Positions 930 through 29,487 of a DNA stretch of 32,000 bases are shown in pieces (the first letter of the stretch is position 1; every line of letters begins with the position of its first letter). The notes under the pieces are model-generated. The model was not told the origin of the DNA and ran no database searches. It saw only the letters and a list, made by a program, of their open reading frames with translations. The stretch is taken from contig NC_007181.1 of assembly GCF_000012285.1 (NCBI RefSeq), positions 420,001-452,000 on the forward strand. The letters are read 5' to 3'. The translations under genes and the position numbers were made by a program. Source of the stretch: Sulfolobus acidocaldarius DSM 639 (GTDB lineage: Archaea > Thermoproteota > Thermoprotei_A > Sulfolobales > Sulfolobaceae).

Positions 930-1090
930 ATGCTATTATTAACTTCTCAGTTTTTAACGTTTAACTATCCGTGAGTTAGCCCTAAAATTAAGGGCAACTC
1001 CCCGGGAGTTTAAGGGGGGAGTTAAAGGGAAAAATAACGCCAGCTCAAGAAGAGCTAAACGTTTAAATTTTTTGAATAGAATAGATAATT

Positions 1091-1513: not shown

Positions 1514-1550
1514 GCTTTTTTACATGTAGTTGCGTCTTCTTTCTTCTTCA

Positions 1551-1689
<139 letters not shown>

Positions 1690-1701
1690 TCAATCCTCTG
1701 A

Positions 1702-1857
1702 TCAATCAGCTCTTATTATTTCAACTTTCCTTTTTAGCCTTAAGCCCCCTATGACCCGAGGGTTATTTATGTATAAAATCAGCTCCATCGGGTAGTCGCT
1801 GTACTGCTTAGCCAATTTTATTATATCTTTTGGGTCTTTTGCTTTTACGACAAACAT
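1702..1857 (-). CDS. Small hypothetical protein (51 aa), paralog of 774-929
   Basis: My translation: MFVVKAKDPKDIIKLAKQYSDYPMELILYINNPRVIGGLRLKRKVEIIRAD. Same length and position within the duplicated unit. Confidence 0.6.
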   Translation of the reverse strand: MFVVKAKDPKDIIKLAKQYSDYPMELILYINNPRVIGGLRLKRKVEIIRAD

Positions 1858-2018
1858 AAGCTAATTATTGTGTTGCAAAATTTAAACGTTTAGCTGGCGT
1901 TGAGCTAGCCCTAAGATTTAGGGAAGCTCACCTTGAATTTGAGGGGGAGCTAAAGGGAAAATAAGGTATAGCTCAAGAAGAGCTTAAGGTTTAAATTTCT
2001 GAAAGAGAATGGATAATT

Positions 2019-2438
2019 ATGGGACTGTTTGATAAAATTAAGAACAGAGTGGCTGACGCGTACTCACAACAAGACAGGTGTCTGAATCCCTACCCGTACC
2101 AGAAATCATTAGATTCATTCTTAGGCACGTTTGAAAGAATGGGCAGAGCATTCACATATGAAAAGTGGTACTGGGACGAGGAGGGATTATTTACTGGAGG
2201 GTATGGGATAGTTACAGGCAAAAAGGTAGAGAAAAGAATTCGATGGGATGAAATACAAGACATCGTGCCAATGAATGTGCAAAGCATTTCAGCATACGGC
2301 CTTAACCTTGCTGGTACCTCTAAAACTATAGGGGATTGGGTTGTAGTACTCAAGAACGGCGAGAGGGTTATGATTAGATATGTTTTGGATCCAATAAATA
2401 TGGCTGAAGCTTTCAAAAAACTATATCTTAAATCTTAA
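2019..2438 (+). CDS. Hypothetical protein (139 aa), paralog of 1091-1513
   Basis: ORF track plus paralogy. The upstream region shares 'gataattATGGGA' and a TATA-like TTTAAATTT with copy 1. Confidence 0.7.
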   Translation: MGLFDKIKNRVADAYSQQDRCLNPYPYQKSLDSFLGTFERMGRAFTYEKWYWDEEGLFTGGYGIVTGKKVEKRIRWDEIQDIVPMNVQSISAYGLNLAGTSKTIGDWVVVLKNGERVMIRYVLDPINMAEAFKKLYLKS

Positions 2439-2474
2439 TAAGAAATAGTACTAACTTTCCTCTTCTTGTCCTTA

Positions 2475-3938: not shown

Positions 3939-3984
3939 TTTTCCTCATCTTATCCATTTTTAAAAAGCAGTATCTCGAGAAGCG

Positions 3985-5845: not shown

Positions 5846-5846
5846 A

Positions 5847-6110
5847 ATGCCTGAAGAAATAAAGAGCCTGAAAGAGCTTTACAATATCGTAAAGCTCAAG
5901 GGGTACAACGCGACTCTTCTTGATGACATATTATTTATAGAATTGAAAGACAAAATGATAGCGATCACTGTGGTAAGGGACGTGTTCCTGGTCAGGTACT
6001 TCAACGATAAGGAAAAAGAGAACTACATCCTCCGCTCCCTGAAGACCGAGAACGTAGAGGCCTTAGTTCACAAGAACCTCAGTGGGCTCAATGCTGTCAG
6101 GCTGGAATAA
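5847..6110 (+). CDS. Hypothetical protein (87 aa)
   Basis: The ORF starts 1 nt after the stop of the ATPase gene, which suggests co-transcription. No recognisable motif. Confidence 0.55.
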   Translation: MPEEIKSLKELYNIVKLKGYNATLLDDILFIELKDKMIAITVVRDVFLVRYFNDKEKENYILRSLKTENVEALVHKNLSGLNAVRLE

Positions 6111-6739
6111 GTGATCCATTCGTATTCTTTCAAAATCAACTTATTCCTCAGCTTGTAGTCCTGCGAGTACTTCTTAATTAGTTCTAATTTCTCGCGCGTC
6201 TTTAACTCGTGGAAGCCTGGGTAGTATTTACTCAGCAAAGTGTATAACTCCTTAGCTTCTTTTCTCTTCTCTTCATCAAGTTTGTTGAAATATAGTTCTA
6301 GTGGGTCTATCCTCATGCTCCTGAGGAGCTTCTTCCTCTGCCTTATTGCGTAGGCCCCTATCCCCTTCTGCCTCAAGAACTCCATGTACTCCCTGTTGAC
6401 GCGCCTCCCGTGTTTTTCTAAGACGAACTCAAAGATTGCTAATAATAGTGCGGGATCCTGTTTCTCAAATTTCGCTAATATATGATAGAATAGATCTTTC
6501 TCTTCATCACAAAGCCTCGATAGAATGTATTGCAGTATAATATCTTTTGTACTCTTCCTATGCAGCTTTGTATTCGTGTCTCTTTTTTCTCTTTTTGAAG
6601 AATAATATTCAATTGCAGAGAAGTCAGTGTATGAGTTATTATTAATAATAGGTATATCTTCATCTATAATTTCCCCCGTACAACTATTTACTCTAAATCC
6701 TTCTGGATTAATAATAATCTCGCATTCTTGGGGGGTCAC
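6068..6739 (-). CDS. Hypothetical protein (223 aa) adjacent to the integrase fragment
   Basis: ORF track. Helical Lys/Glu-rich protein that I cannot assign to a family. Its 3' end overlaps the convergent ORF 5847-6110 by 43 nt. Confidence 0.6.
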   Translation of the reverse strand: MTPQECEIIINPEGFRVNSCTGEIIDEDIPIINNNSYTDFSAIEYYSSKREKRDTNTKLHRKSTKDIILQYILSRLCDEEKDLFYHILAKFEKQDPALLLAIFEFVLEKHGRRVNREYMEFLRQKGIGAYAIRQRKKLLRSMRIDPLELYFNKLDEEKRKEAKELYTLLSKYYPGFHELKTREKLELIKKYSQDYKLRNKLILKEYEWITYSSLTALSPLRFL

Positions 6740-6818
6740 ATTTCTCGTGATTTTAAAAGATGAATAGAAGTATTGTGGTGGGGAATAAAGTATTACCTTA
6801 AGTTAACTGGGGAGTTAA

Positions 6819-7622
6819 CTAAGGAAAATTCTGCTTAACCCACTCGGCGTACTTCTTATAGTGTTCTCTCGCTATACCGAATAGCGAGACGTAGTGTCGA
6901 GTCAACACACGCGTAGGTTTTCTACCCTGAATGAAGTCAATAACATCAAAGGGTATGCCTAATGTCGCCATTTGCGTTGATACGAACTTGCGGAAGTACT
7001 TCGGGGGTATTAGGCCTAACTGTTTTACGTATTTATCTACATAAGGCTTCTTTAGCTCCATCCTCATGATTGGCATCACGTGGAAGAGGTAGAATGAGCC
7101 CTTACTCCCTCTAGTCCAATTAAGCTCATAGTAACAGATACCCTCACATACATCCTTAGTGGCGTCATACTCGTTCATCACTCGTAAAACTTCTGCCTCC
7201 CTCAGCCCCGATTCCAAAAGTAAGCGGAAGAAGAGTGAGAGCTTCGCGTTACTGGATACTTTAGCTAATGTATCCTTAATTTGCTCAACTGAGGGGATTC
7301 TCAAATCGGCCCCCGTCTTCTTCACCTTCAGCCCCTCTGGCGGTTCCCGGCCTAGGACTAGCCTGTAGAAGTTGCGCCACGCCTTTACGCAGTTATTCGA
7401 TTCCTTACTCCCTCGCTTAATGCAACTAATATACCTCTTAATTGTATCTTCAGTTAATCCTTTTCTCTTTAGTTCTAATTGAAATTGTATCAGTTTAGAA
7501 TCAGAAAATTCAGAGTTGTTAGAAGACGTAGAATTAAGGTCACTTATTCTAACTCCATTCAATTCTAGACTTGATTCTAGGCTTGGGGGCGTGGGGGGTA
7601 TCCCCCACTGCGGGCCTGTCAA
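6819..7622 (-). CDS. int: SSV-type tyrosine integrase, C-terminal (catalytic) fragment Int(C) created by integration
   Basis: The C-terminus ...[19 protein letters not shown]...[56 protein letters not shown] matches the SSV1 integrase C-terminus as I remember it (YYPLSWTRGYKGVFYVFH...[37 protein letters not shown]). The annotated N-terminus runs into tRNA-like sequence, and the SSV-type N-terminal region is absent. Confidence 0.85.
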   Translation of the reverse strand: [267 protein letters not shown]

Positions 7623-7656
7623 GCCCGTGACCCGGGTTCAAATCCCGGCCGCGGCA
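7610..7656 (+). other. att site: 3' half of a tRNA (anticodon stem to discriminator; loop reads CUGUCAA, GUC, Asp-like), right junction of the integrated element
   Basis: G-CGGGC-CUGUCAA-GCCCG-UGAC-CCGGG-UUCAAAU-CCCGG-CCGCGGC-A. There is no 5' half. It closely resembles the intact tRNA-Asp at 10670-10742 but is not identical. Confidence 0.75.
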
Positions 7657-7731
7657 CTACTTTTACACTAATTGAAAGAGACTCTATTTATAGAACTTAG
7701 CATACGTAACTTTAACCAGTTAGAGTTGCAA

Positions 7732-7863
7732 CTATTCGCTTTGAGGCAAAAAATCATTAACCTCGGATTTACTCCAGCATCTAGACCAACAACATGCCCA
7801 GTAAGCTATCTCAATTCTTCCTAAACTTTCCTTAGCCTTCTTATTATATTTCAACAGCTTCAA
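7732..7863 (-). CDS. Cys/Trp-rich small peptide P4 (43 aa from a TTG start), paralog of P3 (17630-17755)
   Basis: My translation: (L/M)KLLKYNKKAKESLGRIEIAYWACCWSRCWSKSEVNDFLPQSE*. It aligns with P3 (L/M)RVLKSNKKTKRSSERIEIACWAGCWFSCW... with many third-position-only differences (RIEIA = aga att gag ata gct versus agg ata gaa ata gcc). The position relative to an ABC-ATPase 3' end is identical. Confidence 0.45.
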   Translation of the reverse strand: MKLLKYNKKAKESLGRIEIAYWACCWSRCWSKSEVNDFLPQSE

Positions 7864-8105
7864 ATAAGCTTCCCTCTATCATCGTATAGACTTTCGGATT
7901 AGTAAAAGCTTCTATAAGCTTCTTATCACGGCTTACTGTATAATTTATCATATCTTCCCTAGTCTCAATCATCATTATTAGTAATTACATTAGTGTTTTT
8001 CAACAGTTTTCCTGTAATTAACTACCGCTTTGTAAGGTGTGGGCATTACCCATATGCATCATCTGGGTTTAGCATAACGAACTTCTTGCTGCCGAATCAT
8101 TTCTG
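7844..8105 (-). pseudogene. Decayed 3' portion of an ABC-transporter ATPase, paralog of 17017-17649
   Basis: The terminal frame reads MMIETREDMINYTVSRDKKLIEAFTNPKVYTMIEGSLFEAVEI*, versus the intact ATPase ...GIIVTHDKDLVKVFSGTPVYTMIEGELFEGIKV*. Upstream pieces sit in other frames (FGSKKFVMLNPDDAYG* ~ FAKPRVCTLDEPLENVD; PYKAVVNYRKTVEKH* ~ PQKREKVIRVIRERVKEG). The N-terminal two-thirds is missing. Confidence 0.6.
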
Positions 8106-9777: not shown

Positions 9778-9836
9778 GAGCCCTGGCCCGGTTCAAATCC
9801 CGAACACTGCACTACTTTTACATGAATTGAAGGGAG
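9778..9836 (+). repeat. Degenerate second copy of the att (tRNA T-arm/acceptor) plus its downstream flank
   Basis: gagccctggcccggttcaaatcccgaacactgcaCTACTTTTACAtgAATTGAAgGGAG aligns with 7621-7680 aagcccgtgacccgggttcaaatcccggccgcggcaCTACTTTTACActAATTGAAaGAG. Confidence 0.6.
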
Positions 9837-10538: not shown

Positions 10539-10669
10539 ATTTTACCCCGCCATTTTTGTAATTCAACTTAAATCTAATTAAAACTTTCTACCCATATTAC
10601 GTCACGTTAATTATAGGCGTAAGCAAGTAAAATTTAAATTATAAGATTTACAATACTAAATTGCCGCGT

Positions 10670-10742
<73 letters not shown>

Positions 10743-11011
10743 TTGTACTACATATTTTATATTCGTTCTCTTTAATATTACCTCGGTTAGACGGAAAGCT
10801 GAAAAACGAAGTAACGTAATGCATAGTTATCAAAACTTTATCATGGGATGCACTCAAGTTATTTTTGAGGAATTGATCAACATAACGAGATATATCGGCA
10901 GATTACTAACTGACTTTAAGAGCAAAATTACTTGACACATTTATTCTAACGTTCAGTATTACTGGATCGAGAAAAATAAGTCATTATAAACTACAACTTA
11001 GCTGAGATTAC

Positions 11012-11630: not shown

Positions 11631-11930
11631 TTACTGAGATTTTCCTAGTAGTTTCAATATTTCTCTAGCTACTTTTTCTCCCTCCTCCGTAATTACTACT
11701 CTCATTCTTTTTCCACTAGGTGTAGGCATGTAGCTAATTTTCAAGTAGCCAGATTTATGCATAGCCTTCAAATGTTGATATAGCTCAGCCTTGTTAAGTC
11801 TAGTTGATTCTATTAAATCCTTAAACCACGCAGACTTAACGTAATACAATCCAAGTAGAATGCCTAGCCTGACAGAGACGTTAAGAGCCTTGTTGGACTT
11901 TATAAGATCTACCAACTTATCGAGCTCCAT
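11631..11930 (-). CDS. Winged-helix (ArsR/MarR-like) transcriptional regulator, last gene of the RiPP operon
   Basis: 99 aa. An HTH-like segment FKDLIESTRLNKAELYQHLKAMHKSGYL is followed by a wing (PTPSGKRMRVVITEEG). It starts 10 nt after the upstream gene's stop. Confidence 0.7.
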   Translation of the reverse strand: MELDKLVDLIKSNKALNVSVRLGILLGLYYVKSAWFKDLIESTRLNKAELYQHLKAMHKSGYLKISYMPTPSGKRMRVVITEEGEKVAREILKLLGKSQ

Positions 11931-11940
11931 TTAAAGCACC

Positions 11941-12504
11941 TTACTCTTTTATAAGTAAATTATAACATAGTGATACAATCGCCATTCCAAGAGCAGACAA
12001 AGGCATATAGGGTACTAATGCTAAGAGTACTCCTTCGACAAGGTACGAGACGGGCAGAAGCGTGTCTTTTCTCCTTATAGTCTTTAAGATAAACCATAGA
12101 TTAACTGACATAAACACTAAGTATGTCGCTACTAAAAAGAATGTTAAATATGACAGGATAGTAAAGTGCAACGATAGGTAAAATAGTAACAGTAAGACAG
12201 CATATCCGGCCAAGAGGAAAGTTCTAATAAAGATGCGGTCTCTAGCAGACCAAAAGATTTTATCGCTAATGTATGCCTGCCTTAACATTCTATAGGATAA
12301 TGCCAAATAGATACCAGAGAAAAGCAAAAGTAATGTATTTAACAGTAATAGAGGTTCAGTCTTAACTATACTGTATACTATAAAGCCTGATAGGCTAGAT
12401 ATTCCTATAAAATTCAATATTCGTTTACTAGACATATATAAATAATAATAGACAATATTTCTTGCAATATTCAATGATTCCTCTACGTCTATTTCCTTTC
12501 TCAT
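11941..12504 (-). CDS. Polytopic membrane protein (about 5 TM), candidate immunity/export accessory
   Basis: 187-aa hydrophobic ORF. It has an ATGA-type 4-nt overlap with the dehydrogenase gene, implying co-translation. Confidence 0.7.
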   Translation of the reverse strand: MRKEIDVEESLNIARNIVYYYLYMSSKRILNFIGISSLSGFIVYSIVKTEPLLLLNTLLLLFSGIYLALSYRMLRQAYISDKIFWSARDRIFIRTFLLAGYAVLLLLFYLSLHFTILSYLTFFLVATYLVFMSVNLWFILKTIRRKDTLLPVSYLVEGVLLALVPYMPLSALGMAIVSLCYNLLIKE

Positions 12505-13202
12505 TCCTCTCCCACTACCAACATTCCTATAACTACCTCTCCTTTTTCCATTCCTACTCCTATCAGTTTATTAAAGAAATCGTCATTAAAACCTCCAATC
12601 GCAGATATTCCCAAACCTAGTGCAGTAGCTACTAGGTAAAAGTTTTCTATCACTATTCCGGTGTCAATCAGGGAAAATCTGGCTCCTCTATTTCCATATT
12701 TAACCATCGGCTTCCAGTATAAGCTAGTAAGGAGTATTATTAGCGGAACAAAGGTTATGTCAGGCAGTGAGTTCTTTATAGCTTGTAGCATTAGCTCTTC
12801 ATCCAAGTCATTGCTGAGGACGTCTAGGGATCCTTCCACAGGGTCATAGTGATATACACCTTTCTCTAAGTCTGTGTAGAGCGAGATCAAGTACACCTCA
12901 GTTTCTGCCAGATTGCCAGCAGATGGGAACATTCTAAACTGAATTCCGTTTTCTATTTCTTTCACCCCTACAGAATACCATAGTAAGCTGGATATCTTGT
13001 TGAGGTTTATCCTCTCCCTCCTAAATGCCCTACTAGAGTGTCTTCTCTTCATTACCTCTTGGAAACTAACATTGATTTCTATGGGAGTTGGAAGAGGTAT
13101 CTTTTTGACGTTGCCGTATTTCTTCGGTAACGAGTTAGGGAGTAAAGTAAAATTGAATATTTGAGTATCTAGATAAAACCTCTCAAAAGGATTCAAATTC
13201 AC
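12501..13202 (-). CDS. SagB-type FMN-dependent dehydrogenase (azoline oxidase, nitroreductase superfamily)
   Basis: 233 aa. Motifs RRHSSRAF, FPSAGNLAETEVYL and KYGNRGARFSLIDTG (Lys-Tyr motif), plus C-terminal GISAIGGFNDDFF. Sits directly downstream of the YcaO gene. Confidence 0.8.
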   Translation of the reverse strand: MNLNPFERFYLDTQIFNFTLLPNSLPKKYGNVKKIPLPTPIEINVSFQEVMKRRHSSRAFRRERINLNKISSLLWYSVGVKEIENGIQFRMFPSAGNLAETEVYLISLYTDLEKGVYHYDPVEGSLDVLSNDLDEELMLQAIKNSLPDITFVPLIILLTSLYWKPMVKYGNRGARFSLIDTGIVIENFYLVATALGLGISAIGGFNDDFFNKLIGVGMEKGEVVIGMLVVGEE

Positions 13203-13207
13203 ACCAC

Positions 13208-14521
13208 CTACGGAAATGGTACAGGCTCTTCCACAAAGAGTTCTACATTGCTTAGGTTGAACTCTTTCCTGATTGTATAATATCTTTTGTGACCTAAGAA
13301 GGGCAGATTAGGGATATGTGCTGGAGTGAGGTCGGGTACTATGACTCTAACTAGCTTACCCTCCCCTAAGTACTTCTCGATATCAAAATCCTTATAAATT
13401 ATATAGTAGTTTTTTCCTAGAATAATATCAATTAGACTTTTATAGGAAAGATTTTCTTCTCTCTCTAGTTCCTCATAAGTAATGGACTGTAGGCTTCTTA
13501 GGTACTCTACTAAGAAGTTTGTCTTGACAAAGCTGTAATAAAGAGGAACTAGACCAAAATCAGTTAAGTAGTCTGGTTTAAGGTTTCTCGCCATCTTAAT
13601 CTCCTCATCTGTTATCTTGCTAAATGATGATATAGACTGGTATACCTCAAATACTGCCTTTCTTATAGCCTCCTCTAGCGTTATGTCAGCCCCTGCGCCG
13701 GCTACGTAAAGGTCGTTAATGAAACCTAGGCAGCCGACCACGAATAAACCTTTGAACTCGCCCGGAAAAGAAAGGCAAGTTATGTTCCTATCTTCTAGCA
13801 CCTTTAACTTTCGCCTTATCCTCTCGGGCAATCTTATCCTCTTTGGAGGGATTCTAGATATCCAAGAAATGTTTATTGTATCCCTCTCAAGATACTCAAG
13901 TAGACCGTGGATAAAAGCGCTCTCGAAATCCTTATGAAATGCTAGACCCCCAGTCGTAGAGTAAGCTATAAGATCTTCACCAGGCCTTATCAAGTTAAGT
14001 AAATAAGTTATTTGGACGGGTATATATACGTCAGACCCTTTATAGTATTTGGCTCTTGTAAGACTGAGCATAACGTTCTCGTTATAATCTCTAAATATCA
14101 AAAGCTTCTGTAGTTGTTCTGTCGAGAAGAACTTGTAAGTTATTGGAAAGATTTCATACTTAGTCATGAGATCTCCTATTCTACCAAATATTATGCTTTC
14201 GTCGTCGAACAATGTAAAAGCCCCATAAAATCTTTCCAAGAATTCGCCTATTGCTCCTTCTAAACTCTCTTCTTCTGTGAACCCCTTACCTCCGGCTGGT
14301 ACAACATTACTTAGGTATTTTAATAGAGGTAAAACTTGAGGAGGAGTCAGCACTTCTATACTGCTCCTGATCCAACCCTGTCCTATATGAGATTCTAATA
14401 TATTATAATTTACGTAATTAAGCAATCTAGTGATAATAACGTTATCATACTTCTCAGCTACGTAACCGAAAACAGGGCCTATGAACTCGTTTATAAATTC
14501 TTCGAGGCGCACTTCGTGCAC
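13208..14521 (-). CDS. YcaO-family cyclodehydratase (TOMM 'D' protein)
   Basis: 437 aa. GKGFTEEESLEGAIGEFLERFYG matches the YcaO ATP/Mg-binding motif (GKG...S/A..E..ER). The C-terminus ...EEPVPFP* is a PxPxP motif characteristic of azoline-forming YcaOs. Confidence 0.85.
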   Translation of the reverse strand: MHEVRLEEFINEFIGPVFGYVAEKYDNVIITRLLNYVNYNILESHIGQGWIRSSIEVLTPPQVLPLLKYLSNVVPAGGKGFTEEESLEGAIGEFLERFYGAFTLFDDESIIFGRIGDLMTKYEIFPITYKFFSTEQLQKLLIFRDYNENVMLSLTRAKYYKGSDVYIPVQITYLLNLIRPGEDLIAYSTTGGLAFHKDFESAFIHGLLEYLERDTINISWISRIPPKRIRLPERIRRKLKVLEDRNITCLSFPGEFKGLFVVGCLGFINDLYVAGAGADITLEEAIRKAVFEVYQSISSFSKITDEEIKMARNLKPDYLTDFGLVPLYYSFVKTNFLVEYLRSLQSITYEELEREENLSYKSLIDIILGKNYYIIYKDFDIEKYLGEGKLVRVIVPDLTPAHIPNLPFLGHKRYYTIRKEFNLSNVELFVEEPVPFP

Positions 14522-15213
14522 CCTGGTATCTTTAGGGGTGTATTTAGGATCATCTCTCCCTCTTTCACGTCTATATAGATAAGTTTTCCGTTATAATTCC
14601 TAGAATTAAGAAGGAGTTTAATAAACCCCAACAACAGATTTTCAGCACTAACATCTAGATTTGAAGTAGTTTTATAGATAATTTCACCACCTAATTTTAC
14701 GTCCATAATTAGTTTGGAGTTCTTTAACCATACATAAATCTCATATAAGCATGGGGTCTTAGAGTCCATTACGTATACAAAGAACCTATAATAATCCATC
14801 GCATACCCTATCACTACCTTCTCAAACTTTCTACTCTTAAGTAGCGTCACAATTTCATCATTTTCGGATAATAAGTAGCTTATATTACTAGATATAACTG
14901 CTATCTTAGATTTGTCTTTGACTTCTTGAAATGATTTGATGACTCTAAAAGAGAACGGATCTAGGTTCTTAAAATTTAATGAATTTACTTTAAGGTAAAT
15001 TATTTCATCATCACTAAGGATAAGCCTTAATTCCTCCAGTTCGCCTTTTTCTTTCTCATCAATTTCTCCGCTTAAGAATTTAGCCCATTCAGCCTCTTCG
15101 AATTCAACTATCCCAGAAGCTTCTGAAAACAAAACATATTTATTACCGTCTCTAATTGTAACAAAAAACGGAGATATCTTATACGTCCCGGCTCTCTGCA
15201 TAGTCGACATCAC
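14491..15213 (-). CDS. Putative cyclodehydratase partner / precursor-recognition protein (RRE-like N-terminus, short E1-like remainder)
   Basis: 240 aa. The N-terminal FVTIRDGNKYVLFSEASGIVEFEEAEWAKFL resembles PqqD-type RiPP recognition elements. C-terminal PGCTKC. It lies between the precursor gene and ycaO, and its start overlaps the precursor stop (TGATG). The assignment is an inference. Confidence 0.5.
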   Translation of the reverse strand: MMSTMQRAGTYKISPFFVTIRDGNKYVLFSEASGIVEFEEAEWAKFLSGEIDEKEKGELEELRLILSDDEIIYLKVNSLNFKNLDPFSFRVIKSFQEVKDKSKIAVISSNISYLLSENDEIVTLLKSRKFEKVVIGYAMDYYRFFVYVMDSKTPCLYEIYVWLKNSKLIMDVKLGGEIIYKTTSNLDVSAENLLLGFIKLLLNSRNYNGKLIYIDVKEGEMILNTPLKIPGCTKCASKNL

Positions 15214-15341
15214 CCACTAACTCTACCACCACCCCCAAACCAACAACCAAACCAGCAGCCAAACCAACTAAATAACACCCTTCCTTCAGAATATGCCTGG
15301 TATATCAGGTTTGCTCTCCTCACAGTATAATAAGCTCTCAT
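15210..15341 (-). CDS. RiPP precursor peptide P1 (43 aa), not in ORF track
   Basis: Codon-by-codon translation: MRAYYTVRRANLIYQAYSEGRVLFSWFGCWFGCWFGGGGRVSG*. The core is three tandem 12-nt repeats (tggtttggctgc tggtttggttgt tggtttgggggt, 15231-15266). The stop overlaps the next gene's ATG. It is the first gene of the YcaO operon. Confidence 0.75.
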   Translation of the reverse strand: MRAYYTVRRANLIYQAYSEGRVLFSWFGCWFGCWFGGGGRVSG

Positions 15342-15459
15342 ACTACCATCCCCCGATATAAATTAGCTTAACTATACTATTAAATTGTAGATAAAGTTAA
15401 GGAGTTTTAACTATGTGATATATTTAAATTTCATTTCTTTTTGACTTATTAGACATGAC
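15342..15459. promoter_or_regulatory. Divergent A/T-rich promoter region between precursor genes P1 (minus) and P2 (plus)
   Basis: 118 nt. TATA-like TATATTTAAATTT (15419-15431) lies ~35 nt upstream of the P2 ATG. ATATAAATT (15356-15364) and TATTAAATTG (15379-15388) on the other strand lie upstream of P1. Confidence 0.4.
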
Positions 15460-15576
15460 ATGAAAGTCGAAATAGTACACAGGAAAGGAATTCTAACTAA
15501 GCAAGTCAATTCCTTAGCATGTTGGTTTGGATGCTGGTGTTGCTGTGGAATAAAAAGACCAGACAGTAATATGTAG
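15460..15576 (+). CDS. RiPP precursor-like peptide P2 (38 aa), not in ORF track
   Basis: My translation: MKVEIVHRKGILTKQVNSLACWFGCWCCCGIKRPDSNM*. It shares CWFGCW with P1 (tggtttggatgctgg versus tggtttggctgctgg) and is divergent from P1. Its 3' 63 nt overlap, antisense, the end of ORF 15514-16173. Confidence 0.5.
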   Translation: MKVEIVHRKGILTKQVNSLACWFGCWCCCGIKRPDSNM

Positions 15577-16173
15577 ACCGAACAGCACTATGGCGGTTTC
15601 ACATAAAATTTCGCTAAGAGAACCATTCTCTAGGGAGACCACAAAGTGCCAAAATATGTTTAACGAATCTCGAAAGATGTACGCTAGGATGTAGGGCACA
15701 ACAACCACAAGCGGATAGATCCCCGTTAGGAGCCAGGAATTTAGCCTATACTTAGTTAGTACAGCAGTCACTAGGTTGGAATATGAGGTCATTGACAAAG
15801 AGACGAATGCTGAGACAGCTAGAGTTGAATAGAGGTTAAGTTTGTAGTTCAAGAAATAGAAAATTATCATAGCTAGTACAATATATATTAGAGATGAGAT
15901 AATTCCTGCTAAATGTAAAATGAAAAGATATTTAGTTTTATTTAATTTACCGAACTTATTAAAGAAGATAATCCCAGTAGAATTATACATTAATACATAA
16001 CTCACCCCTGTGCTGATAATGGTTATAATTGTAAAGCAGGAGAAACCAAAGAGGTAGGATGGTATGTAAGCGTAACTTATCAGTCCAAACATGAGACCTC
16101 CTTCAATGATATTGTATAGGGCAGGCCTGCTCACGGTGAGTTGTTTAAGGAGATAAATGAAGATACTTTTCAT
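15514..16173 (-). CDS. Polytopic membrane protein (about 6 TM; ABC-2-permease-like or immunity protein)
   Basis: 219-aa strongly hydrophobic ORF upstream of P1 on the same strand. No catalytic motif recognised. Confidence 0.7.
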   Translation of the reverse strand: MKSIFIYLLKQLTVSRPALYNIIEGGLMFGLISYAYIPSYLFGFSCFTIITIISTGVSYVLMYNSTGIIFFNKFGKLNKTKYLFILHLAGIISSLIYIVLAMIIFYFLNYKLNLYSTLAVSAFVSLSMTSYSNLVTAVLTKYRLNSWLLTGIYPLVVVVPYILAYIFRDSLNIFWHFVVSLENGSLSEILCETAIVLFGLHITVWSFYSTATPASKPTC

Positions 16174-16288
16174 AGCAATTTTAGCATAATTTAAGCCTAA
16201 TAAACTAGTAGTGTGGTTAACAACTTTTAACTTTCTCGACCCCTTATAATCCTTAACGTCAGCAATTAAGTTAGGGGTAATAAATTAT

Positions 16289-17026
16289 ATGGAGCTTGAG
16301 AAGTCGATGATAGTGAAGTTCACAATATCTCCTACAGCATTAATATATATGACAGGCATGATGCTGTTAGACAGTGTAGGACTCTATTTTGCATTAAGCT
16401 CTGTAAAGAACTTGGAAGTAGGAGCAATCTGGTATTCTTCTAGCGTCTTACTGCTCTCAGCGAGCATATCAGCAGGCTTTTCAAACACTCTCATATACCA
16501 GTCCTCGTCATTAGCTTATCTGATAAGATTCAGTAAGCTAAAGTTAATGAGATATGTGATAAGCCTATTACTTGGAGTCTCTGTGTCAGTAGTACTCTTC
16601 TCCCTCCTCTTTGGAGGCATCATAGCACCACTCGTCGCTAAGGTGGCTATTGGGGTAACTCATACCTTTGTATCCCTTAGCAATATAGTTCCCTTTACCA
16701 TTTCAGCTTTGGTAGCTGGATTTTTCATAGTCTCATTAACATTTCTGGTTATAGTTATTCTACTCCTAAAAGTAGGGGCCAGAGCCTCTAATTACGTCTA
16801 CATAATCTTCCTTGCACTATTGGTACTAACCCAACTATCCCCACAGACCTCCTCATTGAACCCTATTTTCTTAGCCGAAGATGCAATAACTCACTCAGTG
16901 ATAAACCAGCACTTCAGCCCATACATCCTAGAGCTTCTGGGATTCTCTTTACTCCTGAGTTTTCTCAGTACTACATTACTCAGGAGGCTAGAGTCTCTTA
17001 GGCTAGAGGAGGTAATTTGGAAGTGA
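16289..17026 (+). CDS. ABC-transporter permease-like membrane protein
   Basis: 245 aa with about 6 TM segments. Its stop overlaps the start of the ABC ATPase gene by 10 nt. Confidence 0.7.
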   Translation: MELEKSMIVKFTISPTALIYMTGMMLLDSVGLYFALSSVKNLEVGAIWYSSSVLLLSASISAGFSNTLIYQSSSLAYLIRFSKLKLMRYVISLLLGVSVSVVLFSLLFGGIIAPLVAKVAIGVTHTFVSLSNIVPFTISALVAGFFIVSLTFLVIVILLLKVGARASNYVYIIFLALLVLTQLSPQTSSLNPIFLAEDAITHSVINQHFSPYILELLGFSLLLSFLSTTLLRRLESLRLEEVIWK

Positions 17027-17649
17027 GTATCACGATAAAGGATTTAGTAGTGTCGCTTAAGGGAACTCGAATACTGAAAGGGATAAATCTTGTAGTAGAA
17101 AATACTGTAGCCCTCTTGTATGGGACTAACGGTTCTGGGAAGACTACGTTAATTAGAGCTATATCTGGTCTTATCCCTTATAGCGGATCAATAAAGATAA
17201 ACGGCAAAGAGGTCAGGAGTGCGAAGAATCTTTTAGAGTACTCCACAAATTTACCAGAAGTTTATTTCATAGGAAACACTGTCCTTGATACTGCGAAGAT
17301 AGTAGCAGAACTAAAGGGCGGTGACTTGAGAGAATTTCTCGAGTTAGTGGAAAGATTCGGCCTGGAAAGTAAGAAAGTTATCAATAAGCCTTTTTACAAG
17401 CTATCAACAGGGGAGAGGTCTTTGGTAACATTATCCCTTGCCCTCTTCGCTAAGCCAAGAGTCTGCACACTCGACGAACCGCTAGAAAATGTAGATCCAC
17501 AAAAGCGGGAAAAGGTAATCAGAGTCATCAGGGAGAGAGTAAAGGAGGGAATAATAGTGACGCATGATAAAGACTTAGTCAAAGTGTTTAGTGGGACACC
17601 AGTATATACAATGATAGAGGGAGAGTTGTTTGAGGGTATTAAAGTCTAA
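17017..17649 (+). CDS. ABC transporter ATP-binding protein
   Basis: Walker A GTNGSGKTTL, signature LSTGERS, Walker B CTLDEPLENVD, and H-loop-like IIVTHD. Confidence 0.85.
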   Translation: MEVSITIKDLVVSLKGTRILKGINLVVENTVALLYGTNGSGKTTLIRAISGLIPYSGSIKINGKEVRSAKNLLEYSTNLPEVYFIGNTVLDTAKIVAELKGGDLREFLELVERFGLESKKVINKPFYKLSTGERSLVTLSLALFAKPRVCTLDEPLENVDPQKREKVIRVIRERVKEGIIVTHDKDLVKVFSGTPVYTMIEGELFEGIKV

Positions 17650-17755
17650 TAAGAAGACAAAGAGAAGTTCAGAGAGGATAGAAATAGCCTGCTGGGCCGG
17701 TTGTTGGTTTAGTTGCTGGACTTCACATGTACGTGATGATTGTGAAACTAAATAG
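17630..17755 (+). CDS. Cys/Trp-rich small peptide P3 (41 aa from a TTG start overlapping the ABC ATPase 3' end by 20 nt)
   Basis: My translation: (L/M)RVLKSNKKTKRSSERIEIACWAGCWFSCWTSHVRDDCETK*. The frame opens only after TAG at 17615-17617, and TTG is the only start candidate. The core DNA gcctgctgggccggttgttggttt resembles the P1 core. It is conserved with P4 at protein level. Confidence 0.55.
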   Translation: MRVLKSNKKTKRSSERIEIACWAGCWFSCWTSHVRDDCETK

Positions 17756-18204
17756 TTTCTTTGGCTCCCAGATAATGTTGCTAAGCACATGTAAATTTGC
17801 TGACTTCCTTTAAGCACAAGGGGCTAATACTTATTATTTATTCACCTAGTCCGCTTGGCCTTCTTCAAACATTCATACTCTCTTTAACCTATGTAGAAGG
17901 TTAGCTTTTCATTCGTCCCCAACAAGTACTGATTACTAGTCCCTTATAATAGAGTACTTAATGTAGTCAGAGTAGCACCTGTAAACATGAATCAGTGTTC
18001 ACTGACTACACGTTGATACGTTTGAAGGCTAACGAGTTAGCTGATAAGTTTGAGGAATCTAAGAAAAACGTCAGCGAAGTTTATAAAAATTTGTAAAATG
18101 ACGTTAGTTAATGTTGTCTACTTTCACTTCAACGATTTTTGATCTCAAATCGAAAGTTGATGAAGAAGACCATAAGCCCATCTCCTTTAAATGTCAATCA
18201 AACT

Positions 18205-19323
18205 TTAGGAGCCTTTGTATAACGCAATTATGAACGCTAGCAATGACAAGATGATAAACAAAACGTACAAATAAAATAACAAGGTCGAACTAATCTGGTA
18301 TAAGTAACCTGAAAATGCCAAGGTAATAGCTGTAGATGAACTTGATATTCCAGAAAGAATCCCAAATTTTACTCCCCTTCCTCCAATTTTAGCCACTTCC
18401 CCAAAAAACAGTACCTCCCATGCTATTGCTGAAAATACTAATAGAGCCATCATTAAAAAGCCGACAATTGTCGTCTTCGTGACCGTGAGTAAGTAGAAAG
18501 AGACCCCCTCAAGGGTGTACGCTGATATCAAGATTTTTCGTGAAGCAATTCTCCCTATTAATGGAGGAACAACTGTGTATAATAAGGTTTGAACCGAATA
18601 GAAAATTCCTAAGGTCGTTTTATCGAAACCAAAGTGTTCAACGCTGTAGATTATCAGTATGTAACTATCAGGTGACGCTACAAGAGAAAACAGACCCAAG
18701 GAGATGGATAAAATTACTAACCTTGTTTGTTTAAGTTGCCTAAGTGCCGAAACTATTCTGCGTTCAGTATTAATGGTTCCTTTCACTTCAACGATTTTCA
18801 ATCTCAATACCGCACTAATTACATTAACGAAAGAGGAGATAAGAAAGGATAAGCCATTACTAACCAAAAAGGAGCCTAAAAATGGCCCTATAATACTTGG
18901 TATTGAGGCTACAGATAAGAATAATCCATATGTTTGGGCTGGCCTTTTAGACTCAGCAATTATTACTCTAGATGCTACCGAAATAAAGGTAGGAATTAAA
19001 CCCAAATTCAGGATTATACAAGCTAGCGAAAAATCTCTTAGGCTATATGTTATTCCAAAGTACAGGCTAAAGTTTAGCGAGGAAGCTACGATAGTAAAGA
19101 AGAAAAGAATTAATCGAATAGAATATTTATCAGCTAAGATTCATGAAAATGGAGACGATACAATTCCCAGTAGTGTTATAATTGAATATATAATTCCTTG
19201 TAGTGTTACGTCTATACCTATTCTCAGGAGGATTAATGGTAGATAAAAAATCCACAGAGAGTTACCAAAGGTCAATAATGAAGTGGATAATCCTAGGTAG
19301 AAAAAATTATCTTTTTTGATCAT
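18205..19323 (-). pseudogene. MFS-type transporter interrupted by one in-frame TGA (19141-19143)
   Basis: Track ORFs 19141-19323 and 18205-19005 are in the same frame. Reading through the stop gives ...GIVSSPFS*ILADKYSIRLILFFF...NLGLIPTFISVAS... (about 372 codons, 10-12 TM). The stop occupies the Gly position of the MFS loop motif G-x-L-A-D-(K/R). Confidence 0.7.
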
Positions 19324-19945
19324 TTCTATTCGACCTATGGCATCCTGGTATATCTTCCATCAAATCTCTAGTTAGTAAATACATAATGAACCTTGACCCT
19401 CCCCTACATAATGTTTTTAACTCACTATGGGAGCATTTTTCAGGATATTTAAACTCTTTAATTCTTCTTAATAAATCATTTTTCTCCCAAATTTCCTTTC
19501 GTGTTATTCTTTTTATATTGACTAGACTTAGCTCTGAAAAGCACGAAGCCTCTTCTTGCCCAAATACATCTCCACTAAGTGCTACTATTAAACTTTGCCC
19601 CCAGGTATTAGGTAGAGGTCTGAGTCCTTTCATGATTTCAACATCAAAATCAAATAAAATGCTTTCTTCATAACTGCTATTTAATTTATGTTTTATTTTT
19701 AGTACTTTGTCTATCTCTTTTTCGTCTGAAATAAGGAGAAGTTCGTAGTTAAAATATATATGACCCACTCTAAGTAGTTGGTGAGTTCCCACAAACTCGA
19801 ATCCTATGTCAAATGCCCTTTCTATGATTTCCTCTACATAGTCTATATATGGCCTTATGAGTACAACCTGACCAGTTATAACTATTCTGGCGTTTGTAAA
19901 ATTCAAGGCACTATTTAATCTTTTATTAATTTCCGCTAGAATAAA
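19307..19945 (-). pseudogene. Radical-SAM/SPASM-domain protein, N-terminally truncated and with degenerate Cys motifs
   Basis: ...ARIVITGQVVLIRPYIDYVEEIIERAFDIGFEFVG resembles the post-CxxxCxxC 'GGEPLL...TNG' region. The C-terminal ...SCFSELSLVNIKRITRKEIWEKNDLLRRIKEF..EKCSHSELKTLCRGGSRF...IPGC resembles a SPASM domain, but C..C has become CSHS and CxGGC has become CRGGS. No CxxxCxxC is found upstream, where the frame is closed by TGA at 19946-19948. Confidence 0.4.
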
Positions 19946-20181: not shown

Positions 20182-20438
<257 letters not shown>

Positions 20439-20554
20439 AGGCAGATATACTATATAATCATTTAAATTATAAATTTTTCCGCGTTAGCCCTTTGAGTTGA
20501 AATATATAAGCTAAGACGAAGACCAAGATTAAAAAATAATTTTATTTTAGATAA

Positions 20555-27581: not shown

Positions 27582-29487
<1,906 letters not shown>

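What the first reader, a model, noticed from the sequence alone, without database searches (positions are those of the whole stretch)
11631..17755. Azole-type RiPP (TOMM/LAP-like) biosynthetic cluster in a Sulfolobales genome
Six tightly packed minus-strand genes form one apparent operon. The junctions are a 1-nt TGATG overlap, a 31-nt overlap, a 5-nt gap, a 4-nt ATGA overlap and a 10-nt gap. (1) A 43-aa Cys/Trp/Gly-rich peptide. (2) A 240-aa protein with a PqqD/RRE-like N-terminus. (3) A YcaO with the GKG...EGAIGEFLER nucleotide motif and a terminal PVPFP (PxPxP) motif. (4) A SagB-type FMN dehydrogenase (RRHSSRAF, PSAGNLAETEVY, KYGNRGARF). (5) A 5-TM protein. (6) A wHTH regulator. Immediately adjacent are a 219-aa polytopic protein and a permease plus ABC ATPase pair. 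This is the mcbA-G / sagA-I gene logic: precursor, cyclodehydratase, dehydrogenase, export/immunity. I am not aware of any characterised azol(in)e peptide from Sulfolobales. I cannot verify novelty without a database.
Basis: partly seen in the sequence, partly recalled or inferred. Interest (0 to 1): 0.9.

Follow-up and report, generated by a model that had tools for sequence, protein, structure and literature searches.

The report
Known Sulfolobus thiazole-peptide gene cluster
This is a real, intact gene cluster in Sulfolobus acidocaldarius for making small thiazole-containing peptides, but a 2015 survey already catalogued it as "thermoacidophisin"; what I add is two more conserved, unannotated precursor genes and a shared control sequence in its promoters.

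Summary
All six minus-strand genes, their junctions and the quoted motifs are present. The enzymes pass curated family cut-offs: YcaO scores 273.8 bits against TIGR03604 (SagD family; cut-off 219) and ends in PVPFP. The dehydrogenase scores 175.2 bits against TIGR03605 (SagB; cut-off 78.4). The TOMM/LAP interpretation is therefore supported.

It is not new. The window is Sulfolobus acidocaldarius. Cox, Doroghazi and Mitchell (BMC Genomics 2015, PMC4603692) named this cluster family "thermoacidophisin", and their table lists this exact 43-aa precursor. I found no report of a characterised product.

New details:
- **Two more precursors.** P2 (15460-15576, +) and P3 (17630-17755, +) have CW-rich cores. 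They are unannotated but conserved in metagenomic orthologues, with only synonymous changes in the cores.
- **Repeat cores.** The P1 and P2 cores are built of WxGC-type units, and one unit is missing, in frame, in some orthologues.
- **Shared operator.** The palindrome GTTAA-N6-TTAAC lies in both divergent promoter regions and in the orthologues' promoter regions. It is probably the site for the cluster's wHTH regulator.
- **A relic.** A degraded second ABC-plus-precursor module sits at 7732-7975.
- **The 240-aa protein.** It is a very divergent, shortened E1-like "C" partner. An RRE in it is not demonstrated.

The parts
11631..11930 (-). Winged-helix transcription regulator (99 aa). It is the last gene of the biosynthetic operon here. 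In the orthologous loci it stays paired with the 187-aa membrane protein.
   Evidence: Pfam HTH_34 E 3e-10 and HTH_5/ArsR E 9e-6. Orthologues are 63-65% identical in L002 and L006.
11941..12504 (-). 187-aa membrane protein with about 5 TM segments and unknown role. It could be an immunity protein or the regulator's membrane partner. It always lies next to the wHTH gene.
   Evidence: No Pfam or NCBIfam hit. Hydropathy scan. Conserved at 30-35% identity next to wHTH in L002 and L006.
12501..13202 (-). SagB-type FMN-dependent azoline dehydrogenase ('B' protein, 233 aa).
   Evidence: TIGR03605 175.2 bits against a cut-off of 78.4. PF00881 E 1e-19. A Lys-Tyr pair is present in KYGNRGARF.
13208..14521 (-). 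YcaO cyclodehydratase ('D' protein). It is 437 aa from the GTG at 14521; NCBI annotates 434 aa from 14512.
   Evidence: TIGR03604 273.8 bits against a cut-off of 219.25, covering model positions 1-377 of 377. PF02624 E 3e-41. The C-terminal PVPFP is invariant in alignment A2. The protein is 100% identical to S. acidocaldarius AAY79926.
14491..15213 (-). Divergent, shortened 'C' partner protein (236-240 aa). It probably derives from an E1-like protein, has a conserved PC...W..N core and ends in PGCxxC. It is the presumed leader-binding and YcaO-activating partner.
   Evidence: No family hit of its own. Only 2 relatives among 1.84 billion representative proteins. hhalign against the bacterial 330-aa homologues gives 96.9% probability, E 1.6e-10, over the C-terminal 89 columns. 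Those homologues weakly hit TIGR03603 and TIGR03882. Their AF2 model matches LynD, MccB, PaaA and McbB.
15210..15341 (-). Precursor P1 (43 aa): MRAYYTVRRANLIYQAYSEGRVLFS-WFGCWFGCWFGGGGRVSG. This is the annotated, published precursor.
   Evidence: It is listed in Cox et al. 2015 Table S2 and corresponds to AAY79928/WP_011277430.1. Orthologues lie directly upstream of the C gene in L002, L003, L006-L010 and L012.
15396..15411 (.). Palindromic operator candidate GTTAAGGAGTTTTAAC, in the 118-bp divergent P1/P2 promoter region.
   Evidence: Only 2 matches to GTTAA-N6-TTAAC in 32 kb, against 0.07 expected; no shuffle of 100 reached 2. The same motif lies in the equivalent intergenic regions of the orthologous loci.
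15460..15576 (+). Precursor P2 (38 aa, unannotated): MKVEIVHRKGILTKQVNSLA-CWFGCWCCCGIKRPDSNM. It is its own transcription unit, convergent with the 219-aa permease gene. Its last 63 nt overlap that gene's 3' end.
   Evidence: Orthologues in L002, L006 and L009 share the core CWFGCWCCC. Core codons show 3-4 synonymous and 0 non-synonymous differences. The exact sequence is absent from the 15-billion-protein collection. A TATA-like ATATATTTAAAT lies 30-41 nt upstream of the ATG.
15514..16173 (-). 219-aa polytopic membrane protein, probably a second permease subunit of the ABC transporter.
   Evidence: Conserved in L002 and L006-L010. Weak paralogy to the 245-aa permease: pairwise E 0.007 and tblastn cross-hits of E 4e-5 and 6e-4.
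16216..16231 (.). Second copy of the palindromic operator candidate, GTTAACAACTTTTAAC, in the divergent promoter region between the 219-aa gene and the 245-aa permease gene.
16289..17026 (+). 245-aa ABC-transporter permease.
   Evidence: Its end overlaps the ATPase gene by 10 nt. Orthologues are 49-53% identical in L002 and L006. No Pfam hit.
17017..17649 (+). ABC transporter ATPase (210 aa).
   Evidence: PF00005 E 3e-19. Sub-threshold matches to bacteriocin and lantibiotic ABC ATPase models.
17630..17755 (+). Precursor P3 (41 aa, TTG start, unannotated): MRVLKSNKKTKRSSERIEIA-CWAGCWFSCWTSHVRDDCETK. It overlaps the ATPase gene's stop by 20 nt and is presumably co-transcribed with it.
   Evidence: Orthologues in L002 and L006 sit in the same position after the ATPase gene. 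In the core IACWAGCWFSCWT, window versus L002 differ at 8 synonymous and 0 non-synonymous codons of 13. The sequence is not in the protein collection.
7732..7975 (-). Relic of a second, paralogous module. It comprises the last ~25 codons of an ABC ATPase gene (ORF 7844-7975) followed by precursor-like P4 (7732-7863): LKLLKYNKKAKESLGRIEIAYWACCWSRCWSKSEVNDFLPQSE.
   Evidence: DNA alignments A1 and A8 show about 220 nt of homology to 17560-17760 with an in-frame 6-nt indel. Translations. It lies next to a pseudo-tRNA-Asp and an integrase gene.

Best explanation
This is the 'thermoacidophisin' thiazole/oxazole-modified microcin (TOMM, also called linear azole-containing peptide, LAP) cluster of Sulfolobus acidocaldarius.

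**Substrates (shown to be coding; modification inferred).** Three small genes, P1, P2 and P3, encode peptides with a basic leader and an extremely hydrophobic core. The P1 and P2 cores are built of WxGC-type units (WFGC-WFGC-WF in P1, CWFG-CW-CCC in P2); P3 has the related CW-rich core CWAG-CWFS-CW.

**Chemistry (inferred from family membership, not shown here).**
- The YcaO protein, helped by the small divergent E1-like C protein encoded just upstream, uses ATP to cyclodehydrate the core cysteines to thiazolines.
- The SagB-type flavoprotein then oxidises these to thiazoles. The net change is -20 Da per Cys.

**Export and immunity (inferred).** An ABC transporter made of one ATPase and two weakly paralogous permeases exports the products, protects the producer, or both.

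**Regulation (inferred).** The wHTH protein probably binds as a dimer to the palindrome GTTAA-N6-TTAAC, which lies just upstream of the TATA-like elements in both divergent promoter regions. This would co-regulate the P1-C-D-B-TM187-wHTH operon, P2, the 219-aa permease gene and the permease-ATPase-P3 operon.

**Open points.** No leader peptidase is encoded in the conserved gene set. Leader removal, if it happens, must therefore use a host protease.
For: **Family membership of the enzymes.**
- YcaO exceeds the TIGR03604 cut-off and SagB exceeds the TIGR03605 cut-off.
- Pfam gives YcaO at 3e-41 and nitroreductase at 1e-19.
- The terminal PxPxP and the GE..ER and E..ER motifs are invariant across 15 homologues.

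**Organism and prior report.**
- The YcaO is 100% identical to S. acidocaldarius YcaO.
- The cluster family and P1 are published as thermoacidophisin.

**C protein.**
- Homologous to the bacterial 330-aa C proteins: hhalign 96.9% probability.
- Those proteins weakly hit the SagC and leader-binding models.
- Their AF2 model hits LynD at 8.8e-12, MccB, PaaA and McbB at 3.7e-7.

**Three precursors.**
- All three are conserved in position and core sequence in L002 and L006, whose YcaO is 60-64% identical.
- Core codon differences are synonymous only: P3 8/0 and P2 4/0.
- Some orthologues lack one WIGC or CWFG unit, in frame.

**Operator.**
- 2 matches in 32 kb against 0.07 expected, both in cluster promoter regions.
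- It recurs in every corresponding promoter region of the orthologous loci.

**Gene set.** The conserved set ends there. The flanks of L002, L006 and L010 differ from one another.
Against: - No chemistry or expression data exist for this locus in anything I could search.
- The Saci C protein has no profile hit of its own, and its own AF2 model is poor (pLDDT 48.9). An RRE is therefore not demonstrated, and the middle Rossmann-like part appears shortened.
- The P1 leader is unlike those of P2 and P3. One leader-binding domain recognising all three is an assumption.
- P3 starts with TTG in the window (TTG or GTG in the orthologues), and P2 overlaps the 3' end of the 219-aa ORF.
- There is no protease gene in the cluster.
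- The assignment of the palindrome to the wHTH protein rests on position only.
Confidence: 0.85

Rival explanations
1. Only the annotated P1 is a real substrate. On this view, P2, P3 and P4 are chance ORFs or decaying duplicates of the core-encoding DNA.
For: - P2 and P3 are absent from NCBI annotation and from the 15-billion-protein collection.
- P3 has a TTG start, and P2 overlaps the 219-aa ORF's 3' end.
- P4 clearly is a relic fragment without an upstream gene.
Against: - P2 and P3 are kept at the same relative positions in L002 and L006, even though the gene blocks have been rearranged.
- Their cores are identical or differ at one residue at the protein level, with 3-8 synonymous codon changes against at most 1 non-synonymous.
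- The indels seen are in frame.
- P2 has its own TATA-like box and the operator upstream.
Confidence: 0.07
2. The cluster is a silent or non-functional remnant carried in a region of decayed integrated elements, and it makes no product in S. acidocaldarius.
For: - The surroundings are a mosaic of element scars: a pseudo-tRNA-Asp with an SSV-type integrase C-terminal fragment at 6819-7656, and an integrase N-terminal fragment reading into tRNA-Gly at 20182-20427.
- Nearby genes are broken: a truncated rSAM/SPASM gene, a truncated MFS gene and the P4/ABC relic.
- There is no protease gene.
- The C protein is shortened compared with its bacterial relatives.
Against: - All 11 cluster ORFs are intact.
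- The YcaO is identical across many S. acidocaldarius assemblies (it is indexed in 185 blocks of the collection).
- Catalytic motifs are intact.
- The shortened C protein is the conserved state of the whole archaeal clade at 45-50% identity, not a local truncation.
- The cores and the operators are under purifying selection.
Confidence: 0.1
3. The YcaO installs a different backbone modification, such as a thioamide or amidine, or it acts on a protein other than the small CW-rich peptides.
For: - YcaO enzymes are known to catalyse thioamidation and amidine formation as well (established knowledge of the family; see PMC5589413 and PMC8442711, listed).
- There is a weak secondary hit to the McrA-thioamidation YcaO model TIGR03266 (39.5 bits against a cut-off of 365).
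Against: - No TfuA-like gene is in the conserved set.
- A SagB-family dehydrogenase is strictly co-conserved, and such an enzyme only makes sense after azoline formation.
- The best and only above-threshold YcaO model is the azoline-forming SagD family.
- Cys-rich small ORFs sit directly upstream of the C gene in every locus long enough to show it.
Confidence: 0.04

Closest known systems
Thermoacidophisin TOMM family (Cox, Doroghazi & Mitchell, BMC Genomics 2015;16:778, PMC4603692)
   Same: It is the same locus. [quoted passage not shown] It notes that the C proteins are unrelated to other C proteins. Its Table S2 lists the identical 43-aa precursor.
   Different: - The paper lists one precursor per cluster. 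P2 and P3 are not in its tables.
- The operator palindrome, the WxGC repeat nature of the cores, the P4/ABC relic and the metagenomic archaeal orthologues are not described there.
- Its text says the precursors are rich in Tyr and Gly, whereas the listed sequences are rich in Trp, Cys and Gly.
Microcin B17 system (McbABCDEFG, E. coli)
   Same: - Discrete E1-like partner (McbB), YcaO (McbD) and FMN dehydrogenase (McbC).
- They act on a Gly/Cys-rich precursor, and a dedicated ABC exporter is present.
- The AF2 model of the bacterial C homologue matches a chain of the McbBCD complex (6grg_2, E 3.7e-7).
   Different: - There is no McbG-like pentapeptide immunity gene.
- There are three precursors instead of one.
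- The cores are Trp-rich and have no Ser/Gly oxazole sites of the MccB17 type.
- The C protein is about 60 residues shorter and undetectable by sequence profiles.
- The host is an archaeon.
Streptolysin S-type cytolysin clusters (SagABCDEFGHI)
   Same: - Both have discrete SagB, SagC and SagD homologues.
- The NCBIfam models that the B and D proteins pass are the SagB and SagD family models.
- An ABC transporter is present in both.
   Different: - There is no SagE (CPBP) protease or immunity gene.
- The precursor cores are unrelated: CW repeats here against the Cys/Ser/Thr-rich SagA.
- Regulation here is by a cluster-encoded wHTH.
Haloazolisin clusters of haloarchaea (Cox et al. 2015; PMC9953058)
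   Same: Both are archaeal TOMM-type YcaO clusters with no characterised product.
   Different: Haloazolisins have fused, highly divergent CD cyclodehydratases and Ser-rich cores. Here C and D are discrete and the cores are Cys/Trp-rich.

Membership tests
TOMM / linear azole-containing peptide (LAP) biosynthetic cluster | An azoline-forming YcaO cyclodehydratase (D protein). | tested here: met
   TIGR03604 scores 273.8 bits against a cut-off of 219.25, full length. PF02624 E 3.1e-41.
TOMM / linear azole-containing peptide (LAP) biosynthetic cluster | A C-terminal PxPxP motif on the YcaO. | tested here: met
   The protein ends in ...EEPVPFP. P433, P435 and P437 are invariant in the 15-sequence alignment A2.
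TOMM / linear azole-containing peptide (LAP) biosynthetic cluster | An E1-like or Ocin-ThiF-like partner (C protein) with an N-terminal RRE that binds the leader. | tested here: inconclusive
   - The 240-aa protein has no direct Pfam, NCBIfam or PDB-sequence hit.
- The link is indirect. Its C-terminal 89 columns are homologous to the bacterial 330-aa proteins (hhalign 96.9%).
- Those proteins hit TIGR03603 and TIGR03882 below their cut-offs, and their model matches LynD, MccB, PaaA and McbB.
- The N-terminal beta-beta-beta-alpha-alpha pattern comes only from a low-confidence model (pLDDT 48.9).
TOMM / linear azole-containing peptide (LAP) biosynthetic cluster | A SagB-type FMN-dependent azoline dehydrogenase (B protein). 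This is optional for the class but defines azole formation. | tested here: met
   TIGR03605 scores 175.2 bits against a cut-off of 78.4. PF00881 E 1e-19. The Lys-Tyr pair is present in KYGNRGARF.
TOMM / linear azole-containing peptide (LAP) biosynthetic cluster | A small precursor gene, with a Cys/Ser/Thr-containing core, adjacent to the enzymes. | tested here: met
   P1 lies directly upstream of the C gene. P2 and P3 lie within the cluster. All are conserved in the orthologous loci, and their cores are under purifying selection.
TOMM / linear azole-containing peptide (LAP) biosynthetic cluster | Demonstrated azol(in)e heterocycles in the mature peptide. | not testable with these tools
   This needs MS or NMR of the product. 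No report was found.
Thermoacidophisin family (Cox et al. 2015) | The same organism and cluster: S. acidocaldarius, discrete C, D and B proteins, ABC transporter, regulator, and the listed precursor sequence. | tested here: met
   The YcaO is 100% identical to S. acidocaldarius AAY79926/Q4JBA3. P1 is identical to the Table S2 entry for strains N8 and Ron12/I.
YcaO-TfuA thioamidation systems | A TfuA partner gene adjacent to the YcaO, and no azoline dehydrogenase. | tested here: not met
   No TfuA hit among the cluster proteins. SagB is present. TIGR03266 scores only 39.5 bits against a cut-off of 365.

The most novel reading that the evidence does not exclude
The cluster may be a co-regulated three-precursor system rather than a single-product one. 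On this reading, three different, strongly conserved, Trp- and thiazole-rich hydrophobic peptides are all matured by one minimal YcaO, short-C and SagB set. Each is carried on its own transcription unit: P1 with the enzymes, P2 alone, and P3 with the transporter. All units would be controlled through a shared GTTAA-N6-TTAAC operator by the cluster's wHTH. The cores being better conserved than the leaders, with unit copy number varying in frame, would point to a conserved cellular or membrane target or a multi-component activity. That differs from the usual hypervariable-core antibiotic logic. It would be the first characterised azole RiPP from Thermoproteota, in a genetically tractable host.
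Probability: 0.5. Interest if true: 0.55.

Novelty: already known. Interest (0 to 1): 0.35.

Why it matters
As a discovery claim it matters little. The cluster family, its host and its first precursor have been in the literature since 2015.

It is still a worthwhile experimental target. I found no report of a characterised azole RiPP from Sulfolobales or other Thermoproteota. S. acidocaldarius is genetically tractable, by my own knowledge and not tested here. The locus is small and complete.

The details added here make an experiment better defined:
- There are three candidate substrates to look for rather than one. Expected mass shifts are -40 Da for P1, up to -100 Da for P2, and -60 Da for P3 (-80 Da if the tail Cys is also modified).
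- A minimal and unusually short C protein could show what the smallest working YcaO partner looks like.
- A probable operator and regulator pair could be used to switch the cluster on.

Tried and rejected
**Searches that gave nothing useful**
- Genome-contig scans with the YcaO alone and with the YcaO alignment found nothing useful. One was empty; the other returned a distant Syntrophaceae fragment. I could therefore not compare other Sulfolobales genomes or check the S. islandicus REY15A entry in Cox's table. No S. islandicus-labelled homologue appeared in the protein search either.
- A viral-contig scan with the YcaO alignment found no relative. There is no support for carriage on a known virus.
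- An exact look-up of the 437-aa YcaO failed because public records use a start 3 codons downstream. This was resolved through P0001.

**The C protein**
- The word-index search found only the protein itself.
- The exhaustive phmmer search found only 2 true relatives.
- PDB sequence-profile searches with the combined alignment A3 (archaeal plus bacterial C proteins) and the bacterial alignment A6 gave only noise or nothing.
- The AF2 model built on a 6-sequence alignment was too poor to search with (pLDDT 48.9). I modelled a bacterial homologue instead.

**Is the cluster inside a definable integrated element?**
- I looked for a second att copy of tRNA-Gly in the window. Only generic T-arm similarity to other tRNAs turned up.
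- The tRNA-Asp partial copies lie on the side of the tRNA away from the cluster.
- No element borders can be drawn around the cluster, so I left this open.

**Considered and rejected**
- Thioamidation or amidine chemistry: no TfuA, and SagB is co-conserved.
- A CPBP/SagE-like protease role for the 187-aa or 219-aa membrane proteins: no Pfam hit, and the 219-aa protein looks like a permease paralogue.

Full report
**1.

They are 11631-11930 (99 aa), 11941-12504 (187 aa), 12501-13202 (233 aa), 13208-14521 (437 aa), 14491-15213 (240 aa) and 15210-15341 (43 aa).

- P1 to the 240-aa protein: TGATG, a 1-nt overlap.
- 240-aa protein to YcaO: a 31-nt overlap. NCBI's start for YcaO gives 22 nt.
- YcaO to SagB: a 5-nt gap.
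- SagB to the 187-aa protein: a 4-nt overlap.
- 187-aa protein to wHTH: a 10-nt gap.

All the quoted sequence motifs are present. The adjacent 219-aa membrane protein, the 245-aa permease and the ABC ATPase are also there. A crude hydropathy scan agrees with about five TM segments in the 187-aa protein.

**2.

- **YcaO.** The 437-aa protein matches Pfam YcaO (E 3.1e-41). It also matches NCBIfam TIGR03604, the SagD-family thiazole/oxazole-forming maturase, at 273.8 bits against a curated cut-off of 219.25, covering the whole model.
- **SagB.** The 233-aa protein matches TIGR03605, the SagB-family peptide dehydrogenase, at 175.2 bits against a cut-off of 78.4.
- **Conserved motifs.** In an alignment of 15 homologues the GE..ER and E..ERD acidic motifs and the terminal P-x-P-x-P are invariant.
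- **Other parts.** The 99-aa protein is a winged-helix regulator (HTH_34, E 3e-10). The 210-aa protein is an ABC ATPase.

**3. Organism and prior knowledge**

The YcaO is 100% identical to the Sulfolobus acidocaldarius protein AAY79926/Q4JBA3. The window maps to the S. acidocaldarius chromosome, for example CP046615.1 around 648-670 kb.

A full-text search found that Cox, Doroghazi and Mitchell (BMC Genomics 2015, PMC4603692) had already described this cluster family as "thermoacidophisin". They placed it in S. acidocaldarius and S. islandicus plus four bacteria. [quoted passage not shown] They also noted that the C proteins are unrelated to other C proteins.

Their supplementary table lists exactly MRAYYTVRRANLIYQAYSEGRVLFSWFGCWFGCWFGGGGRVSG for strains N8 and Ron12/I. 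No other paper in the library uses the name or links Sulfolobus with YcaO or TOMM chemistry. The product therefore appears uncharacterised.

**4. The 240-aa protein**

It has no Pfam hit, including PqqD, and no NCBIfam or PDB-sequence hit. An exhaustive phmmer search of 1.84 billion representative proteins found only itself and one cluster at 50% identity.

Metagenome loci provide a bridge to known families:
- Bacterial-type relatives of the cluster carry 330-336-aa proteins in the same position. These are L012 and L013 (about 32% GC) and L014 and L015 (about 66% GC).
- Those proteins hit TIGR03603 (SagC family) and TIGR03882 (TOMM leader-binding protein), but below the cut-offs, at E 2e-5 to 1.5e-4.
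- A profile-profile comparison of the archaeal against the bacterial proteins gives 96.9% probability (E 1.6e-10). It covers only the C-terminal 89 columns, which hold the PC..E..W..N and PGCxxC motifs.
- An AF2 model of one bacterial member (pLDDT 67, pTM 0.59) has an N-terminal beta3-alpha3 unit and a Rossmann-like centre.
- Its best PDB matches are all RRE+E1-like peptide-modifying proteins, followed by UBA5 and ThiF. They are the LynD heterocyclase (4v1v, E 8.8e-12), MccB, PaaA and a chain of the McbBCD complex (6grg_2, E 3.7e-7).

The S. acidocaldarius protein's own model is poor (pLDDT 48.9). I conclude it is a very divergent, shortened C protein.

**5. Three conserved precursors, not one**

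A six-frame motif scan found further CW-rich small ORFs:
- P2: 15460-15576 (+), ...SLA-CWFGCWCCCGIKRPDSNM.
- P3: 17630-17755 (+), ...IEIA-CWAGCWFSCWTSHVRDDCETK.
- P4: a fourth copy at 7732-7863 (-).

Neither P2 nor P3 is called in the NCBI records. Neither is in the 15-billion-protein collection or in Cox's tables.

Metagenomic orthologous clusters keep all three precursor types. In these clusters YcaO is 60-64% identical and GC is 30-37%:
- A P1 type lies immediately upstream of the C gene.
- A P2 type lies convergent with the 219-aa gene.
- A P3 type overlaps the end of the ABC ATPase gene.

This holds even though the gene blocks are arranged differently in L002 and L006.

The cores are under purifying selection:
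- P3 core IACWAGCWFSCWT, window against L002: 8 synonymous and 0 non-synonymous codon differences out of 13.
- P2 core CWFGCWCCC: 3-4 synonymous and 0 non-synonymous out of 9.

Two orthologues each lack exactly one four-residue unit, and the loss is in frame. L008's P1 is missing a 12-nt WIGC unit in the DNA alignment. L009's P2 peptide lacks one CWFG unit.

A 39%-identity bacterial-type cluster (L012) still has ...SWLGCWVGCWALGET. The cores are thus better conserved than the leaders, which is the opposite of many RiPP families. The P2 and P3 leaders share an N-[KR]-K motif. The P1 leader is different.

**6. Regulation**

The palindrome GTTAA-N6-TTAAC occurs exactly twice in the 32-kb window. 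The expectation is 0.07, and none of 100 shuffles reached 2. The two sites are:
- 15396-15411, in the 118-bp divergent P1/P2 intergenic region.
- 16216-16231, in the divergent region between the 219-aa gene and the 245-aa permease gene.

In L002 and L006 it occurs at the three corresponding promoter regions: TM219/P1, perm245/P2 and upstream of TM187-wHTH. One of the L002 sites has a single mismatch. It also lies upstream of P1 in L003 and L007-L010, and upstream of P2 in L009.

In the window it lies just upstream of a TATA-like ATATATTTAAAT that precedes P2. The obvious candidate binder is the cluster's wHTH protein. This is inferred from position only.

**7. Transport and other genes**

- The 219-aa and 245-aa membrane proteins are weakly paralogous. 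This suggests a transporter with one ATPase and two permeases.
- The 187-aa membrane protein always accompanies the wHTH gene. Its role is unknown.
- The flanks of L002, L006 and L010 share nothing further.
- The conserved set is therefore 11 genes: three precursors, C, D and B, three transporter genes, TM187 and wHTH. It includes no protease and no TfuA.

**8. Most likely mechanism**

- **Shown here:** family membership of D and B, conservation and coding status of the three precursors, and conservation of the operator.
- **Inferred from established TOMM biochemistry:**
  - ATP-dependent cyclodehydration of the core Cys residues by YcaO with its C partner.
  - FMN-dependent oxidation to thiazoles by SagB.
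  - Export or immunity through the ABC transporter.
  - Transcriptional control by the wHTH protein.

The rivals are each disfavoured by the evidence above: that only P1 is real, that the cluster is a silent relic, or that the chemistry is different. I put them at about 0.07, 0.10 and 0.04.

**9. Genomic context**

The cluster sits between tRNA-Asp (10669-10743) and tRNA-Gly (20362-20439), in a region full of mobile-element scars:
- A pseudo-tRNA-Asp at 7588-7656, overlapped by an SSV-type integrase C-terminal fragment (6819-7622, PF16795).
- A further partial tRNA-Asp copy at 9787-9831.
- An integrase N-terminal fragment (PF07935) reading into tRNA-Gly at 20182-20427.
- A TraG/VirB4-like ATPase at 4334-5845.
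- A 5'-truncated radical-SAM/SPASM gene (19307-19906) and a truncated MFS gene (18205-19005).

The P4 relic, with the last ~25 codons of a paralogous ABC ATPase gene (7732-7975), lies in this scar zone. This hints that the module has been mobile. Cox et al. inferred horizontal transfer for the family. I could not define element borders around the cluster. A scan of viral contigs found nothing.

**10. Verdict**

- The RRE claim is unproven.
- The novelty class is "already known", from bioinformatics only.
- The residual interest lies in the additional conserved precursors, the minimal C protein, the operator, and the fact that no crenarchaeal azole peptide has yet been characterised in this tractable organism.

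Noticed in passing
window 7732-7975 (-): A relic of a second, paralogous module. It holds the last ~25 codons of an ABC ATPase gene (7844-7975, called as a 43-aa gene by NCBI) followed by a P3-like precursor ORF, P4 (7732-7863). In P4 the first core Cys is replaced by Tyr. There are about 220 nt of DNA homology to 17560-17760, with an in-frame 6-nt indel.
   Followed up: yes
window 15396-15411 and 16216-16231; L002 5810, 7303, 8203; L006 3523, 5025, 5901: The conserved palindrome GTTAA-N6-TTAAC lies in every promoter region of the cluster and of its orthologues. The window has 2 matches against 0.07 expected. It is a probable operator for the cluster's wHTH regulator.
   Followed up: yes
window 6819-7676, 9787-9831, 10669-10762: A pseudo-tRNA-Asp (Rfam tRNA, 36.8 bits, 7588-7656) is overlapped by an SSV-type integrase C-terminal fragment (6819-7622, PF16795). 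There is another partial tRNA-Asp 3'-half copy at 9787-9831 with the same downstream flank, plus the intact tRNA-Asp at 10669-10743. These are scars of serial element integration. Their order does not fit a single simple integration.
   Followed up: partly
window 20182-20439: An 81-aa ORF (PF07935, the SSV1 integrase N-terminal fragment) reads into the intact tRNA-Gly (20362-20439, -). This marks one border of a decayed integrated element extending towards the cluster. No matching integrase C-terminal fragment or second att copy was found in the window.
   Followed up: partly
window 19307-19906 (-) and 18205-19323 (-): There is a 5'-truncated radical-SAM/SPASM gene. Only the part equivalent to PqqE residues ~145-337 remains, and the CxxxCxxC part is missing. 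Next to it is a truncated MFS transporter gene, between the cluster and the integrase fragment. They may be the remains of another peptide-modification or export module, or element cargo.
   Followed up: partly
window 1-6800: This region looks like conjugative-plasmid content. It includes a 503-aa TraG/VirB4/HerA-like ATPase (4334-5845). An 85-nt direct repeat (1015-1099 and 1943-2027, 81% identical) precedes two similar ~140-aa ORFs (1091-1513 and 2019-2438). This is probably the body of the element whose integrase fragment lies at 6819-7622.
   Followed up: no
window 15514-15576: In S. acidocaldarius the last ~20 codons of the 219-aa permease ORF run antisense through the P2 core. The orthologue in L002 stops 7 nt short of P2. 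The C-terminal tail (...STATPASKPTC) therefore looks like a lineage-specific read-through rather than a conserved sequence.
   Followed up: partly
L012 2894-3583; L015 10690-11385: Bacterial-type relatives of the cluster carry an extra ~230-aa protein between YcaO and SagB. It resembles SagB only faintly (TIGR03605, E 0.016). It is absent from the archaeal clusters.
   Followed up: no
Cox et al. 2015 Table S2: The table gives the identical S. acidocaldarius P1 sequence for S. islandicus REY15A (F0NHA0). No S. islandicus-labelled homologue of this YcaO appeared in the protein search. The entry may reflect very recent transfer or a table error. I could not check it.
   Followed up: no
window 29462-29515 (-): A C/D-box sRNA, sR5 (Rfam RF01304, 43 bits against a gathering score of 40). 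It is unrelated to the finding.
   Followed up: no
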